Source of the DNA: an uncultured Gemmatimonadales bacterium
GTDB taxonomy: Bacteria > Gemmatimonadota > Gemmatimonadetes > Longimicrobiales > Gaopeijiaceae
DNA length: 64,000 bases
Assembly (NCBI GenBank): GCA_963809895.1
Contig: CAWELD010000010.1
Coordinates: 640,001-704,000, forward strand
Direction: 5' to 3'
Below are positions 1-64,000 of the stretch, piece after piece (positions within the stretch are counted from its first letter, which is position 1; each line of letters opens with the position of its first letter). The position numbers are program-made.

Positions 1-3000
1 CTCGGAGGGAACTTGGAAGAATCCAAGAAGCGGAAGCTGGCGGTCAACTGGCGCCAAGCTGCAGGCGAAGCCTTGTTGATCTGCCTCGGGGTGGGTGTGG
101 CCCTTCTCGGGCAGGCCTGGTGGGAGGCCCGGACCGAGCGGGTCGCGGTCCAGCAGCATTTCGATGGACTCCTCGACGAACTTCGCCGCAACCAAGAGGG
201 GTTGCGGGAATTCGAAGATGTCCAGAACGCCAGTGTCCGCCGAGCCGCGACGGTACTGCGCCTGATCGGTGAGCCTCGCTCCTCCGAGCGCGACGACTCC
301 TTGGTGGCTTTCTCGTGGACGATGGTCTCACACAACTACTTCGTGCCGGCAACGGCGGCGATGTCGAACCTGCTGAGCGCCGGGGGACTCGGTCTCATCC
401 AAGATCCGGCACTGCGCCTGAAGGTGACCGAGTATGCCCAATCTGTTGAGTCGTTCAACAGCTTTACGGCGGACCTCAGGGATTTCCAGCTGCGAGATAT
501 GCGTCCGGCCCTCAGCAAGATCCTTCCTCTGGCGAATCGGCGATGGGTGGAGGATCTGGAGAAACGCGGGATCACGATTCCGGAGTCGTCGTTTCGCGCG
601 GACCCGTCCTCGCTCAGGACCCTGCAATTCGAGAACCTCGTCCTCCTCAGGGTGGGCTACGAGGGAGACGTGGCGGAGTTGGATGTCAGTCTGCGCCATG
701 AAGTGGAGGAGCTCATTGAGCTGTTGGAGTCGTCTCGGTAGGGGTGGCCGAGTTCCCCGAGCGTACCATACGCGGACTTTCTCGCGATGGGAGCGGTCCG
801 CACCTTGGGTGCGCAGCAGAATCGCAAAGCCGGCAAGGCGTACGCCTGACTCGCGATGTTCCCATGTTACAGGTCCAGTTGATCAGAGTACAGATCAAGC
901 GAGGCGAGACGGATCGGCTCGTAGGCGTGGGCTTGTAGGCATGGGGGTTGAGCGGGGCAAGCGTGTATCCTGGTGGGGCCCTCGCGTCTTGCACCGTGAG
1001 CGCCCCGGTAGGCATCATGCGCCTGCCGCAGAGCGCCTGTCGCTCGGCTGAACTCCATCCGCAAGAAAGGCGAGGGCATGCATCGAGGCGAGGGTGTCGG
1101 AGGGCGAAGTGCCCGGATACTCGCTGAACTCCTGATCATCGTCGTGGGCGTACTTCTCGCGCTGGCAGCGGACCGCTGGAATCAGGCCCGGTCCGAGCGG
1201 GCTTTGGAAGCCGCCTATCTGGGACGGTTTGTCCAGGAGATTCGAGCGGACAGCGCGAGCGCGGCTCAGTACCTCGAGGGTCGCCCCTCGATCATCGCTG
1301 GGTTGGACACGCTCATCGCCTTCGTCGATGGGGCTGAGGCCCCACCCAATCTGGTCGCAACGTTGAATCGGGTGTCGGGTGAGTTGAGTCTCCCGGCGCC
1401 GGTGGCATGGACCGAGATCCAGGCCACGAATTCTCTGGACGTGATCATCGACCCCGACATCCGCGCCGCGTTGACCGAGTACTACGCCACCCGGGATCGA
1501 CTCCAATTGATGTGGCGTCGTCAGGACAGCCGGGCGCGAGATCCGCTTTGGGATCAGCTGTATGGTATGGGCCTGTTCGATCCGAGGAGCGAGTTCGGAG
1601 CCCCCCCTCGTACAGGTGTCGAGGCCTTCCGTTCGTGGCCCGACATCCGTCGGTTGCTCGTTGCCTTGGGTGCTGGTCACTACTTTCAGGAGAACAACGC
1701 GGAGCGGACACTGCAGGCGACGCACGTCGCGCTGGAGACTCTGGGGGGCCGGAGTTGAGCGACCGTGCGGTTCAGCCTATCAAGGTCGTCAGGACGCACA
1801 TGGACCGAGTGAAGAGATGAGCGCCAGGTTGAAACTGCGTCGGACCATTACTGAGTTCGTGGTCCTGGTGGTTGGCGTCATGGTCGCCCTTGCCGGAGAC
1901 AACTGGCGCGAGGCCTGGCAGGACTCACGCCTCGAGACCACCTATCTCGAGCGTCTCAGGCTCGAAGTGGAGAGGGGACTCGATGCGCAGGCGACGCAGA
2001 GGACTCAGAATCGAGTCCGCCCAGTCGGCCATCCTCAGTCTTGTGGGCCGCCTCGACGGTTCGGGCAAGAACGTTCTTGCCGGCGACTCCGTGGTTGACA
2101 GCTTCCTCGTTGCCTCCACTGTCGGATTCGAACCTGATCAGTTCGGTCCAGATGTCACGTACCGAGAACTCATCGCTTCGGGGCAACTGCGCGTAATAGA
2201 GGATCCGCTCACCAGAGAGGCTGTCATCGATTATTACAGCGCTCTCGATCGGGTGAAGGCTCAGGCTTCTCAGGTGGTTCCTCTCCAGACGCAGGTGGCG
2301 CGCCTCACAGGGCACCTGCCATTTGAGTTCAGCAGCGGGGACGCGTCTCTGTCTGAGGCGGATCATCGGCGACTACTCGAACTCCTTCGAGGGAGCGACG
2401 TACTGCCAGATCTCCGGGAGGCCCATTCGGATCTCAACCTGCTCTACCTGTTCATGGGCTTTCTGGACGAGGCCGCGGACTCGCTTCTCGGGCGGCTGAG
2501 AGGAGCGGGCTGAAGGACGAGCTCGTGAGGCGTCGGGAGACACGTACTCGCACTGGGGGGCACGACGTTGCGCCGGATGCCTGTTTCAATACCGTGGGTC
2601 AAGGTGCTGAGCGAGGGGGCCGTGATCGTAGCCGGCATCCTGATCGCATTGGCCGTGGATTCGTGGTGGGACGGTCGGGTCGAGCGACGCGACGAGCAGG
2701 ACGCGCTCGGGGAGCTTCAGGCGGAGTTCCAGGACAATGCGGCCCAGTTGGACTCGGTGCTGTGGCATCATGCCACCGGGCAACGCGCGACCGAGGTCCT
2801 CCTGTCGTTCTCTCGAGGACAGGTCGAGTTGTCCGCTGACTCCGTCCGCCAGTTGATCTGGGAACTCGATAATCCCTGGACCTACAACCCGAAGTCCGGA
2901 GCCCTGGACGCGTTGATCGCCTCAGGCCGGTTGGGGATCATCCGGGATCGGGCGTTGAGAACTCAGCTCGCGGGCTGGGAGGGTCTGTTGGAGGACTACC

Positions 3001-63000: not shown

Positions 63001-64000
63001 GGCGCGTTGCACCGTTACCGAGCCGGGCACTGGGCGCGCGTGCACCCGCGCTCGTGGACACACGGGGCCGCACGTGCGGCACGGCGTCTTCGGGAGGGTC
63101 CTGGCGGTCTGGGATTCGGCCGTCGAGGTGCGTATGTCGGCGCAGACGCGCAAGCGAGCGTCAGAGGCACGCGCCGGAAGTGGCCTGCTCACGCGCCGTC
63201 GCCCCTGGGGATTGGCTGCGCTGCGCGGGCGGCTGGCTCGGGTCTTCTCGTCCGTCGAGGAGACGGTCTTCCTGGTCCTCTTCCTGGCCTTCATGGGATT
63301 CGCTGTGGACTGGCTCCTGAGGATCCTGGGGTAGGCGAGTTGCGCGCCGCGCGCGGAGCCTCGGGCCGTTGACCGCCAGACAGGCCACCTGGTTGGCTGT
63401 ACTGGGATGTGTTCTAGCCGTCGCACGCTGCGGGGGCGAGCCGCAGAGACCCGATTTGCTCGTCTCCACGTCCGACAGCGCCGGGATCCCCGTGTATTCT
63501 CTGGCGTCCATCCCCCCGTGGGACGCCCCGGCCTTCGCATGGACGCTGGAGCTCGAGCGTGCGGTGGCGACGGATCGGCCGGGGTCGGGGCGCGCGCCCC
63601 TGCTGTACCGCCCCGAAGGCTACGCGCGCATGCCGGACGGCACGCTGGTGGTGTTGGATTCGTGGGAACGTCGCCTCGCCGTGATTCCCCCTGATCGGGA
63701 CACGGTCATGGCGCGATTCGCACCCACAGGGCAGGGACCGGGCGAGATCTGGAGCTCCAACGCGGTGCTGTGGCCCGCCGACGACACGAGCGTCTGGGTG
63801 CTGGATCCGGGCAACCAGAGGCTGGACCGTTTCGCGCTGAGCGGTGCCCTCCTGGAGGAGTCACCGGTGGTGGTCGGAGGATCGGCCGGATTCGTGCTTC
63901 AGGACCCGGTCACGCACGCGCCCTGGTTCTGGAAGGTGTTCTTCGAGGACTACGAGCACCGGACGCTGACCGACAGCGTGGGGCGTCTGGATCCGGAAGC

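What a model noticed while it worked through the whole genome (the two positions that open the first line are those of the whole stretch)
1..64000. Two chromosomal integrons whose 130-kb arrays record attC decay and GC amelioration
Two integron integrase genes (C10:600921-601910 and C3:3211291-3212394) each read into a ~130-150 kb run of short, co-oriented, mostly unannotated genes; intact attC sites occur only in the first ~25-30 kb, their profile scores fall stepwise with distance, and cassette GC3 climbs from ~0.70-0.74 next to intI to the genome value (~0.86) at the far end. I read both runs as single, age-ordered cassette arrays in which old cassettes lose their attC sites, ameliorate to host composition and become fixed chromosomal genes, i.e. 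a stratigraphic record of integron-driven genome growth (~6% of this genome). New would be direct evidence that sedentary integrons feed permanent genes (incl. a 70-member [...]
Evidence so far: Gene table: after each intI 81%/77% of genes on the + strand vs ~50% in flanks, median protein 165-181 aa vs 282 genome-wide. nhmmer profiles built from local attC: C10 array 60-100 bits at 603-628 kb, 40-48 bits at 634-636 kb, 12-22 bits at 640-644 kb, none beyond; C3 array 115-142 bits at 3213-3228 kb, 31-60 at 3231-3235 kb, 15-27 at 3242-3267 kb, 10 at 3299 kb. Decayed sites visibly keep the stem but lose the GTTAG core. GC3 vs position Spearman rho 0.65 (n=189, p 9e-24) and 0.59 (n=197, p 4e-20). 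Toxin-antitoxin pairs, IS110 copies typical of sedentary integrons. 25 of 70 DUF5128-like propeller paralogs (p 7e-12) and 7 of 8 members of an unannotated 231-aa family lie in the arrays; a sol The finding spans contig positions 600921 to 735000; this window holds only 640001 to 704000 of it. [...]
(Added by a program. Inside this text positions count along the whole contig: contig position 640,001 is position 1 of the stretch shown here. "Call 12" and the like, gene names such as g00115 and contig names such as C1 are that model's own, and its searches are not shown. The text may have been shortened before it was handed on; [...] marks where a part breaks off. The agent that wrote the report below was given it as the finding of a first reader that could run no searches.)

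Follow-up and report, generated by a model that had tools for sequence, protein, structure and literature searches.

The report
Decaying tail of a chromosomal integron
This stretch of a soil-type bacterium's chromosome looks like the old end of a gene-capturing integron, where captured genes have lost their mobility signals and are turning into ordinary chromosomal genes.

Summary
The observation largely holds. C10 carries a true integron integrase followed by 24 attC sites at 603-644 kb. The window, 38-102 kb downstream, has 66 of 71 genes on the + strand, short genes and low but rising GC3. It holds degenerate attC sites at 932-1051 and 4128-4237, and fragments at 31011-31051 and 35164-35200. 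None lies beyond 35.2 kb.

Cassette origin is supported well past the last attC. Genes with homologues among attC-flanked cassettes of other genomes make up 13-15% of genes in each stretch from 645 to 735 kb. The figures are 0 of 38 at 735-775 kb and 0.9% elsewhere. Three window genes are 67-77% identical to true cassettes.

Corrections:
- The C3 "integrase" lacks the integron-specific insertion.
- Conserved backbone starts by 729.7 kb.
- The run is a mosaic containing large non-cassette genes.
- Strict age order is not shown. Genes at window 12-21 kb are shared with an integron-less congener.

Two integron-less congeners keep attC-free, co-oriented runs between the same flanks.

Verdict: a real feature, first reading partly supported, a new variant of a known kind.

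The parts
731..1051 (+). Two adjacent degenerate attC remnants in the gap between genes ending at 741 and starting at 1078
   Evidence: CM R1 with filters off: 932-1051 scores 20.8 bits, E 0.002; 731-841 scores 11 bits, E 0.82. Genome-wide nhmmer: contig 640776-640832 at E 3.4e-6 and 640976-641032 at E 1.4e-5.
1078..7586 (+). Four members of a roughly 231-aa family (1078-1758, 2604-3272, 4783-5514, 6897-7586) interspersed with other short genes, including DinB at 3611-4123 and SnoaL at 4291-4752
   Evidence: The family has 9 members, 8 of them in the two arrays. Members have relatives inside attC arrays of G004, G009 and G075. Pfam gives only a weak DUF6090 hit.
4128..4237 (+). Full-length but degenerate attC between the DinB and SnoaL genes. 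The stems are kept. The R'' box reads CTCAC and the R' box reads GTCAG, in place of CTAAC and GTTAG.
   Evidence: CM R1: 38.4 bits, E 4e-8, model positions 1-123. nhmmer: E 9e-11 after iteration.
5512..5583 (+). Possible attC remnant starting at the stop codon of gene 4783-5514 (tentative)
   Evidence: CM R1: 12.3 bits, E 0.36. The placement fits, but the score is not significant on its own.
5611..6090 (+). 159-aa gene with a relative that is an attC-flanked cassette in congener G004. Its paralogue lies at 10110-10628.
   Evidence: 37.5% over 136 aa to G004:C68 4031-4423, which lies between attC sites 3830-3936 and 4476-4583.
8646..9050 (+). Glyoxalase-family gene whose close relative in G004 is still a cassette with an attC
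   Evidence: 77% aa and 73% nt identity to G004:C62 ORF 1592-1194, which is followed by attC 1171-1068. Similarity ends at the stop codon. dN/dS is 0.09.
12487..13197 (+). Methyltransferase shared with the integron-less congener G003
   Evidence: 64% aa identity to a G003 gene at the orthologous interval. Pfam assigns Methyltransf_25.
13854..16547 (+). 897-aa Ser/Thr kinase with PD40 repeats. It is not cassette-like and is probably a later insertion or duplication.
   Evidence: Pfam Pkinase, E 1e-47. It has 34 paralogues in the genome, one at 73% identity.
19587..20783 (+). Three-gene module (ArsR-type regulator, membrane protein, thioredoxin-like) conserved as a unit in G003
   Evidence: 78%, 46% and 60% aa identity to three adjacent G003 genes in the same order. 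Pfam results.
27503..30706 (-). 1066-aa S8 peptidase on the opposite strand. It belongs to a 6.35-kb block that is absent from the C9 copy.
   Evidence: Pfam Peptidase_S8. Window 27157-33510 has no counterpart in C9.
31011..31051 (+). Fragment matching only the central part of the attC consensus
   Evidence: CM R1: 20.5 bits, E 0.0025, model positions 52-92. nhmmer genome-wide E 0.65.
33927..35200 (+). 408-aa gene of the 68-member propeller-like family, followed 11 bp after its stop by an attC fragment at 35164-35200
   Evidence: Family size and array share. CM R1: 15.7 bits, E 0.047. The same fragment sits after the C9 copy of the gene. Another family member, C3:653540-654574(-), is followed by an intact lone attC.
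35345..35962 (+). Methyltransferase that is an attC-flanked cassette in another genus (G145)
   Evidence: 67% aa and 70.5% nt identity to G145 ORF L046 3743-3132, which is flanked by attC 3890-3769 and 3108-2993. dN/dS is 0.15. In C9 the gene is missing except for its last ~20 bp.
45524..46771 (+). 415-aa member of the propeller-like family
   Evidence: 32% identity to 33927-35153. Family membership.
48110..51129 (+). PadR regulator plus an 870-aa MacB/FtsX permease. This is a typical expanded chromosomal pair and is not cassette-like.
   Evidence: Pfam. The two genes have 29 and 131 paralogues in the genome.
53876..54169 (+). GYD-domain gene that is an attC-flanked cassette in G145. Here its stop overlaps the next gene by 4 bp.
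   Evidence: 67% aa and 72% nt identity to G145 ORF L046 2793-2503, which is followed by attC 2366-2244. dN/dS is 0.24.
54166..57670 (+). Four tightly packed genes (FG-GAP, serine hydrolase, GNAT, polysaccharide deacetylase) with 4-bp overlaps. The FG-GAP gene has orthologues in congeners.
   Evidence: Gene spacing. Pfam. FG-GAP is 65% aa identical to G004:C68 27214-28365 and 64% to G009. About six congeners match at ~70% nt.
60005..60679 (+). NAD(P)H-binding gene, the best-conserved gene of the window among congeners
   Evidence: 82% aa identity to G004:C68 32745-33368, downstream of that genome's attC array. 77% aa identity to G009. Five congeners match at 75-77% nt.

Best explanation
The window is the attC-poor downstream part of a sedentary chromosomal integron in a Gemmatimonadota genome.

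Shown:
- A canonical integron integrase lies at C10:600921-601910. It reads in the same direction as 24 attC sites spread over the next 42 kb.
- attC recognisability drops sharply after 628 kb. It then dwindles to core-mutated sites and bare central fragments by 675 kb.
- The genes that follow stay co-oriented, short and below host GC3.
- Out to about 730 kb these genes are about 15 times more likely than other genes to have relatives among genuine attC-flanked cassettes of other genomes.
- Several are close relatives of cassettes that still carry an attC elsewhere, and they are under purifying selection.

Inferred mechanism:
- New cassettes enter next to the integrase and push older ones away.
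- attC sites serve mobility only, so once a cassette stops moving they erode by mutation and deletion.
- Spacers shrink to the genome norm, while useful ORFs persist and drift towards host composition.
- The tail is not a clean record. Large paralogous genes, opposite-strand genes and deletions have been added, so age order is a tendency, not a rule.
- Congeners without any integrase or attC keep a shorter co-oriented run between the same flanking genes. I read these runs as fully decayed arrays.
For: Integrase and attC model:
- Integrase: TIGR02249 scores 388 bits against a cut-off of 265, with full-length coverage. The integron-specific insertion and the catalytic motifs are visible in the alignment.
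- attC model: on 21 sites the structure is 83.6% paired, and 0 of 500 shuffles reach the observed covariation. In the genome, 26 sites reach E<=0.001, 24 of them at C10 603-644 kb on the + strand.

Remnants in the window:
- Four hits have E<0.05. All are on the + strand and intergenic.
- A control of 100 kb from G003 and G009 gives none.
- Four of the six marginal genome-wide nhmmer hits (E 0.09-2) fall in the 2.5% of search space made up by the two arrays. A fifth falls in the C9 copy. My arithmetic gives p of about 6e-6.

Cassette relatives, measured against 126 kb of attC-flanked DNA from other genomes:
- 602-645 kb: 19 of 56
- 645-675 kb: 4 of 30
- 675-704 kb: 5 of 34
- 704-735 kb: 5 of 37
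- 735-775 kb: 0 of 38
- rest of genome: 38 of 4129
- rest, genes of 260 aa or less: 16 of 1795
- rest, short genes with low GC3: 4 of 328

Close pairs and decay:
- Methyltransferase at 35345, GYD gene at 53876, glyoxalase at 8646. dN/dS is 0.09-0.24.
- Median same-strand spacers shrink from 137 bp to 90 bp to 39 bp. The genome median is 39 bp.
- For GC3, a linear fit beats step models by BIC.

Congeners:
- The right flank, 744-764 kb, matches in 31 of 31 relatives. It is syntenic on the same G004 contig as that genome's attC array.
- G004 repeats the pattern (rho 0.65).
- G003, with no integrase or attC found, has a 35-kb co-oriented run between the same flanks. Its GC3 has the same polarity (rho 0.44, p 0.002). 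It has 5 of 46 cassette relatives against 0 of 39 next door.
Against: - Beyond window 35.2 kb there is no attC trace at all.
- Only 13-15% of distal genes have a cassette relative, and most of those are at 25-37% identity.
- Paralogue sharing within the genome between the C10 tail and the attC-bearing parts is not enriched: 0 of 30 and 1 of 71, against 36 of 4167.
- Several gene sets overlap by 4 bp like operons, including the GYD gene with its neighbour.
- Genes at window 12-21 kb are shared with integron-less G003, yet they lie upstream of the attC fragments.
- GC3 is flat within 681-759 kb.
- G004's attC-free run has only 1 of 50 cassette relatives, and G009's run shows no GC3 trend.
- Arrays in G145 and G160 end abruptly.
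- Integrases of congeners are only 47-62% identical, so separate acquisitions are possible.
- The direction of transfer, cassette to fixed gene or host gene to cassette, is not determined.
Confidence: 0.6

Rival explanations
1. The interval between the conserved flanks is an old, hypervariable island of co-oriented accessory genes, built by ordinary recombination and gene flow. The integron merely sits at its upstream edge in some species. Similarities to cassettes arise because cassettes are drawn from the same pool of small accessory genes, or from occasional off-site cassette insertions.
For: - G003 and G015 have the co-oriented run without any integrase or attC.
- Operon-like overlaps and large paralogous genes lie inside the window.
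- The + strand is the leading strand on the whole contig, and other co-oriented runs exist.
- Lone cassettes elsewhere on C3 show that off-site insertion happens.
- G004's attC-free run has 1 of 50 cassette relatives.
Against: - attC fragments lie 70-74 kb from the integrase, in the right orientation and at gene ends.
- Short, low-GC3 genes elsewhere in the genome show no enrichment: 4 of 328.
- The enrichment stops at about 735 kb: 0 of 38.
- GC3 polarity points away from the integrase side in G000, G004 and G003.
- The region upstream of the integrase is minus-biased even though it lies on the same replication arm.
Confidence: 0.22
2. The run is a composite of separate episodes rather than one conveyor belt. 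A young, active array at 602-628 kb abuts one or more older, dead arrays or attC clusters. These have been further scrambled by duplication, IS activity and deletion. The apparent gradient is then a mixture of a few age classes.
For: - attC scores drop abruptly between 628.3 and 634 kb, from 53-128 bits to 41 bits or less.
- The best GC3 step lies at 681,445, and GC3 is flat beyond it.
- IS110 and a transposase fragment lie in the array.
- Contig C9 is a diverged block copy of window 26-40 kb with gene-sized indels.
- One indel is a microhomology deletion, not an integrase event.
Against: - A linear GC3 model is preferred over one or two steps by BIC, -1209.5 against -1185.6 and -1190.8.
- No second integrase remnant is found anywhere in 602-780 kb; the best E is 0.12.
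- A single attC sequence family is seen throughout, including in the fragments.
Confidence: 0.13
3. The pattern is an artefact of gene calling, leading-strand bias or assembly.
For: Gene calls come from my own simple caller. Co-oriented runs of 85-99% occur elsewhere on C3. C9 might be a mis-binned or collapsed copy.
Against: The attC sites, the integrase and the cassette homologies do not depend on gene calling. Only the two arrays combine co-orientation with short genes and low GC3. The C3 array runs against its replication arm.
Confidence: 0.03

Closest known systems
Sedentary chromosomal integrons such as the Vibrio cholerae superintegron. Their general features are recalled. The abstracts of PMC11023631 and PMC13108822 were seen in search listings.
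   Same: An integron integrase sits next to a large, co-oriented array of mostly unknown small genes. Toxin-antitoxin cassettes lie on the opposite strand, and the element sits in the chromosome.
   Different: Recognisable attC sites cover only the first 26-42 kb. They are followed by roughly 90 kb of attC-free, cassette-related genes. The integrase points the same way as the cassettes. The host phylum is Gemmatimonadota.
Treponema chromosomal integrons and their loss (Wu, Doak and Ye 2013, PMC3607928; passages read)
   Same: The integrase is in the same orientation as the cassettes. One species keeps attC sites and cassettes at the syntenic locus without intI. Complete degradation was proposed for another species.
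   Different: The passages I read report no within-array gradient of attC decay or of composition. Here some congeners keep the gene run with no attC at all.
CALIN elements with degenerate attC sites (Cury et al. 2016, PMC4889954; passages read)
   Same: The authors suggest that degenerate attC sites may mark a step between capture of a gene and its definitive stabilisation in the genome. That is the process inferred here.
   Different: There it is a suggestion about separate clusters. Here the intact, degenerate and attC-free states lie in order along one locus, backed by pairs in which one relative still has an attC and the other does not.
Cassette insertion outside att sites (bioRxiv 10.1101/2022.09.11.507474; abstract seen in search listing)
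   Same: Two lone, intact attC sites lie far from either array. One sits right after a propeller-family gene.
   Different: This bears on the lone cassettes, not on the window. The insertion sites were not examined.

Membership tests
Complete integron (C10 locus) | Tyrosine recombinase of the IntI type, carrying the integron-specific extra domain | tested here: met
   TIGR02249 scores 388.1 bits against a cut-off of 265, covering profile positions 2-315 of 315. Residues ~178-236 form the insertion that the C3 Xer-like protein lacks.
Complete integron (C10 locus) | A cluster of attC sites next to the integrase. Each has imperfect inverted R''/L'' and L'/R' boxes, an R' core GTTRRRY and a length of roughly 57-141 nt (definition recalled). 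| tested here: met
   24 sites at 603-644 kb on one strand. Lengths are 101-124 nt with CTAAC and GTTAG cores. The structure is 83.6% paired with covariation.
Complete integron (C10 locus) | An attI site and a cassette promoter next to intI, and integrase activity | not tested
   The 1.5 kb between intI and the first attC was not analysed.
Cassette array as software defines it (attC sites no more than about 4 kb apart; recalled from IntegronFinder) | Regularly spaced recognisable attC sites across the window | tested here: not met
   Significant sites occur only at 932-1051 and 4128-4237, plus fragments at 31.0 and 35.2 kb. Nothing lies in 35.2-64 kb.
Functional attC site (window site 4128-4237) | A conserved GTT triplet in R', paired with AAC in R'' | tested here: not met
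   R' reads GTCAG and R'' reads CTCAC, while the L stems are kept (alignment). That the triplet is essential is recalled knowledge.
Integron (C3 locus named in the finding) | IntI-type recombinase | tested here: not met
   TIGR02249 scores 210.6 bits, below the 265 cut-off. The protein matches a XerA-type model above that model's cut-off. There is a 31-residue gap where IntI has its specific insertion. An attC array of a different sequence family does follow it.
Sedentary chromosomal integron | A large array (more than 20 cassettes), toxin-antitoxin cassettes, and a chromosomal location shared with relatives | tested here: met
   24 attC sites. Six TA pairs. The right flank is syntenic with G004's attC-bearing contig. 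The integrase itself was found in only 5 of 18 congeners.
DUF5128 / six-bladed propeller (the 68-member family) | A match to the Pfam family | tested here: not met
   No Pfam hit at E up to 5 for three members. The fold model (pLDDT 62.6) matches NHL-type and Vgb-lyase six-bladed propellers at Foldseek E 6.5e-8 to 1e-4 and TM 0.3-0.55. So the family is propeller-like, but membership is not shown.

The most novel reading that the evidence does not exclude
In this Gemmatimonadota genus a chromosomal integron works as a one-way conveyor. It has laid down more than 100 kb of now-immobile, selected genes between two conserved flanks. Relatives with no detectable integrase or attC still carry 'ghost arrays' at the same locus, with the same orientation and the same compositional polarity. 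If so, integron-driven genome growth would be far more common than attC-based detection suggests. It could then be read from genomes that score as integron-free.
Probability: 0.4. Interest if true: 0.8.

Novelty: new variant of a known kind. Interest (0 to 1): 0.62.

Why it matters
What happens to integron cassettes in the long run is an open question. Stabilisation through attC loss has been suggested (Cury et al. 2016, passages read). In five searches of the held library I found no paper describing a positional series from intact attC to attC-free genes, or a composition gradient along an array.

This locus, together with its congeners, offers a natural series: an active array, a decaying tail and integron-free 'ghost' runs between the same flanks. 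That makes the question testable by comparative genomics. It also warns that attC-based tools undercount integron-derived DNA. The attC type is common in this family, in 73 of 151 genomes sampled, so the test can be repeated many times.

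Tried and rejected
- Paralogue sharing within the genome between the C10 tail and the attC-bearing parts showed no enrichment: 0 of 30 and 1 of 71, against 36 of 4167.
- A further nhmmer iteration that included decayed sites found nothing beyond 675.2 kb.
- A profile of the different C3-type attC found nothing in the window.
- De novo direct-repeat search of the window found no new intergenic repeat family. It found only an ~800-bp tandem duplication at 11.3-12.4 kb.
- RNAalifold on the attC alignment gave only 6 pairs, so I set the structure by hand from one site's fold and tested it by pair counts.
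- No integrase remnant was found in 602-780 kb or in G009's run; the best E values were 0.12 and 0.19.
- No attC remnant was found in the G003 or G009 runs with filters off: 4 hits at E 0.13-0.83 in 100 kb.
- A simple 'empty site' comparison with the 20-kb left flank failed at first, because its genes are scattered in congeners. It worked later using the single anchor C10|585248 and the right flank.
- The gene-sized indels between C9 and the window looked like cassette excision. The one junction I read is a microhomology deletion that leaves the last ~20 bp of the gene.
- Leading-strand bias as the sole cause of co-orientation was rejected.
- Pfam gives no DUF5128 match.
- Not tried: expression data and sequencing-run searches.

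Full report
**Setting**

The window is C10:640001-704000.

No gene finder was available. I trained a codon log-odds model on 865 long ORFs and called genes greedily. This gave 4465 genes, a median of 288 aa and 87.5% coding. All gene counts below rest on these calls.

**The integron upstream of the window**

The gene at C10:600921-601910 (+) is a canonical integron integrase. TIGR02249 scores 388 bits against a cut-off of 265, over the whole profile.

Downstream, direct repeats of 101-124 nt carry CTAAC...GTTAG cores. An alignment of 21 of them supports an attC-type fold. It has 21 pairs, 83.6% of cells paired, and 10 pairs with changes on both sides. None of 500 shuffles reaches the observed covariation, and sliding the partners drops pairing to 25-44%.

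A covariance model built from this alignment (R1) finds 26 sites in the genome at E<=0.001. Twenty-four lie at C10 603.4-644.2 kb, all on the + strand. Two are lone sites on C3.

Scores are 53-128 bits up to 628.3 kb. They then fall to 31-41 bits at 634-644 kb, which is a sharp step rather than a slide.

The proximal array also holds six toxin-antitoxin pairs on the minus strand, an IS110 transposase and a transposase fragment.

The integrase points the same way as the cassettes. This is reported for Treponema integrons (PMC3607928, passages read).

**What the window contains**

- Sixty-six of 71 called genes are on the + strand. One more + gene, a DNA alkylation repair enzyme at 59323-60084, surfaced in a Pfam scan of uncalled ORFs.
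- Thirty-seven of the 71 have a Pfam match. These include DinB, SnoaL, glyoxalase, several small methyltransferases, GNAT acetyltransferases and phosphotransferases. I recall such functions as typical of environmental cassettes.
- There are also genes that do not look like cassettes. These are an 897-aa Ser/Thr kinase with 34 paralogues, a 1066-aa S8 peptidase on the minus strand, and a PadR regulator with an 870-aa MacB/FtsX permease that has 131 paralogues.
- Several neighbours overlap by 4 bp in the manner of operons.

**attC traces in the window**

With all filters off, R1 gives four hits at E<0.05. All are on the + strand and intergenic:

| Window position | Bits | E-value | Note |
|---|---|---|---|
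| 4128-4237 | 38.4 | 4e-8 | full length; stems kept; cores read CTCAC and GTCAG |
| 932-1051 | 20.8 | 0.002 | |
| 31011-31051 | 20.5 | 0.0025 | central part of the consensus only |
| 35164-35200 | 15.7 | 0.047 | 11 bp after the stop of gene 33927-35153 |

A fifth hit, 5512-5583, starts at a stop codon but is not significant (E 0.36).

The same search on 100 kb from two integron-less congeners gives nothing below E 0.13.

Genome-wide nhmmer ranks the 671.0 and 675.2 kb fragments among six marginal hits (E 0.09-2). Four of these lie in the two arrays on the array strand, and a fifth lies in contig C9. The arrays are about 2.5% of the search space. By my arithmetic four of six has p of about 6e-6.

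Nothing is detectable beyond window 35.2 kb. This holds for the iterated profile, for the different attC type of the C3 array and for de novo repeat search.

**Composition and spacing**

- GC3 rises with position: rho 0.57 over 601.9-735 kb (n=157) and 0.385 within the window (n=71).
- Ten-kb bins run 0.75-0.78 at 600-640 kb, 0.78-0.81 at 640-680 kb and 0.84-0.86 at 680-760 kb. The rest of the genome is at 0.881, or 0.873 for genes of 150-200 aa.
- A straight line fits better than one or two steps (BIC -1209.5 against -1185.6 and -1190.8). The trend is significant only up to 681 kb (rho 0.33, p 0.001). It is flat from 681 to 759 kb (rho 0.14).
- Median same-strand spacers shrink from 137 bp at 602-640 kb to 90 bp at 640-681 kb and 39 bp at 681-735 kb. 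The last equals the genome median.
- Co-orientation alone is not diagnostic, because several leading-strand runs on C3 reach 85-99%. Only the two arrays also have short genes and low GC3.
- The whole of C10 has positive GC skew, yet the genes upstream of the integrase are minus-biased.

**Are the attC-free genes of cassette origin?**

I collected 126 kb of DNA lying within 1.5 kb upstream of confirmed attC sites. The sites came from congeners and from five other genera of the family. I then asked which G000 proteins match that DNA (tblastn E<1e-6, at least half the protein covered). Results:

| Region | Genes with a cassette relative |
|---|---|
| 602-645 kb | 19 of 56 |
| 645-675 kb | 4 of 30 |
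| 675-704 kb | 5 of 34 |
| 704-735 kb | 5 of 37 |
| 735-775 kb | 0 of 38 |
| rest of genome | 38 of 4129 |
| rest, 260 aa or less | 16 of 1795 |
| rest, short and low GC3 | 4 of 328 |

Most distal matches are family-level, at 25-37% identity. Three are close:

- The methyltransferase at 35345-35962 is 67% aa and 70.5% nt identical to a cassette of G145.
- The GYD gene at 53876-54169 is 67% aa and 72% nt identical to another G145 cassette. The two G145 cassettes are adjacent, and each is bounded by attC sites.
- The glyoxalase at 8646-9050 is 77% aa identical to a G004 cassette. Similarity stops exactly at the stop codon, where G004 has its attC.

dN/dS for these pairs is 0.09-0.24, with dS near or beyond saturation. 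The genes are therefore kept by selection.

A member of the 68-gene propeller-like family sits next to an intact lone attC on C3. The window member of that family at 33927-35153 is the gene followed by the 35.2-kb fragment.

**The locus in relatives**

The 20 kb just beyond the run (744-764 kb) matches in 31 of 31 relatives, G019 included. In G004 it lies on the same contig as an attC array, so the integron locus is orthologous.

G004 repeats the pattern. attC sites span 0.1-15 kb. A + run of short genes then extends to 52.8 kb, and GC3 rises from 0.75 to 0.87 (rho 0.65, n=67). That run holds orthologues of the window's FG-GAP gene (65%) and NAD(P)H-binding gene (82%).

In G003 and G015 I found neither the integrase (E<=1e-40) nor attC (E<=0.001). 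The same left anchor (orthologue of C10|585248) and right flank enclose a + run of short genes, about 35 kb in G003 and 7.6 kb in G015. After the run come orthologues of C10|729682(-), 734547 and 734822. Backbone therefore begins at or before 729.7 kb in G000, not at 735 kb.

G003's run rises in GC3 with the same polarity (rho 0.44, p 0.002). It has 5 of 46 genes with cassette relatives, against 0 of 39 next to it. G009's comparable run has 6 of 33 against 1 of 16. G015 has 1 of 11 against 1 of 43. G004's attC-free part has only 1 of 50 against 1 of 30.

**What argues against a clean, age-ordered record**

- G003 shares the window's methyltransferase at 12487 (64%) and the three-gene ArsR module at 19587-20783 (78, 46 and 60%). 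These lie upstream of the attC fragments at 31 and 35 kb, and their order differs between the species.
- The order of the FG-GAP and NAD-binding genes is swapped in G009.
- Contig C9 is a diverged, collinear copy of window 26-40 kb, at 72-90% nt identity, with gene-sized differences. The one junction I read is a microhomology deletion, not an integrase event.
- Arrays in G145 and G160 pass abruptly into normal chromosome, so a long tail is not universal.
- Integrases of congeners are only 47-62% identical to this one.

**The second 'integron'**

The C3 gene named in the finding scores below the integron-integrase cut-off. It lacks the insertion that defines IntI. It is nevertheless followed by an array of a different attC family, with remnants out to 3266.8 kb. 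Its attC-free continuation has 14 of 112 genes with cassette relatives. This locus lies outside the window and I did not pursue it.

**Literature**

- Integrons are listed for Gemmatimonadota in a 2021 review (PMC8618304, passage read).
- Loss of an integron with syntenic remnants is described in Treponema (PMC3607928, passages).
- Cury et al. suggest that degenerate attC sites may mark the way to stabilisation (PMC4889954, passages).
- Five full-text searches found no description of a positional decay series or a composition gradient along an array. Subscription-only papers are not covered. I recall Gillings et al. 2005 on Xanthomonas as possibly relevant but did not see it.

**Verdict**

The feature is real. 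I put about 0.6 on the reading that the window is the decaying, mosaic tail of a chromosomal integron whose old cassettes have lost attC and persist as selected genes. The main rival is a pre-existing accessory island that the integron merely adjoins, at about 0.2. The strict stratigraphic reading and the second integron are not established.

Noticed in passing
G000 C3:3211291-3212394 and the array to about 3267 kb (L006, L007): A Xer-like tyrosine recombinase reads into an array of a distinct attC family (R' GTTAT/GTTAG/GTTAA). It is below the IntI cut-off and lacks the IntI-specific insertion. Either the true integrase is lost, or a non-IntI recombinase is associated with attC sites.
   Followed up: partly
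G000 C3:653413-654574 (-): A lone, intact C10-type attC (85 bits) sits immediately downstream of a member of the 68-gene propeller-like family. It is a single cassette far from either array.
   Followed up: partly
G000 C3:1892750-1892882 (-): A lone, intact C3-type attC (110 bits by nhmmer) lies about 1.3 Mb from the C3 array.
   Followed up: no
G000 contig C9 (8837 bp) versus window 25977-39915: C9 is a collinear, diverged copy (72-90% nt) of this part of the window, with gene-sized gains and losses. It may be a second genomic copy or a co-assembled relative.
   Followed up: partly
window 11312-12482: A tandem duplication of about 800 bp (79-88% identity over the matched pieces) covers two uncalled ORFs with no Pfam match.
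   Followed up: no
window 31591-32154 (-): A 186-aa ORF matches only the C-terminal third of gamma-glutamyltranspeptidase (profile 334-508 of 512). It is probably a gene fragment.
   Followed up: no
window 35962-38132: A 2.2-kb stretch has no gene called by my model and no Pfam match for its ORFs. Parts of it are conserved in C9 at ~80% nt.
   Followed up: no
Family-wide: attC sites matching the model built from this genome occur in 73 of 151 sampled genomes of the family (46 of 81 genera). Some genomes have more than 20 sites, so integrons are common in this group.
   Followed up: partly
window 33927-35153, 45524-46771 and 66 paralogues: An expanded family of ~400-aa proteins shares a G-x-G-P-G-E motif. 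It has no Pfam match, and its predicted fold resembles six-bladed NHL-type propellers. Twenty-six of the 68 members lie in the two arrays.
   Followed up: partly
G009 C1:436-468 kb (-): A complete congener genome has no integrase here and no attC in this region. It still holds a co-oriented run with members of the array-enriched families and orthologues of two window genes in swapped order.
   Followed up: partly
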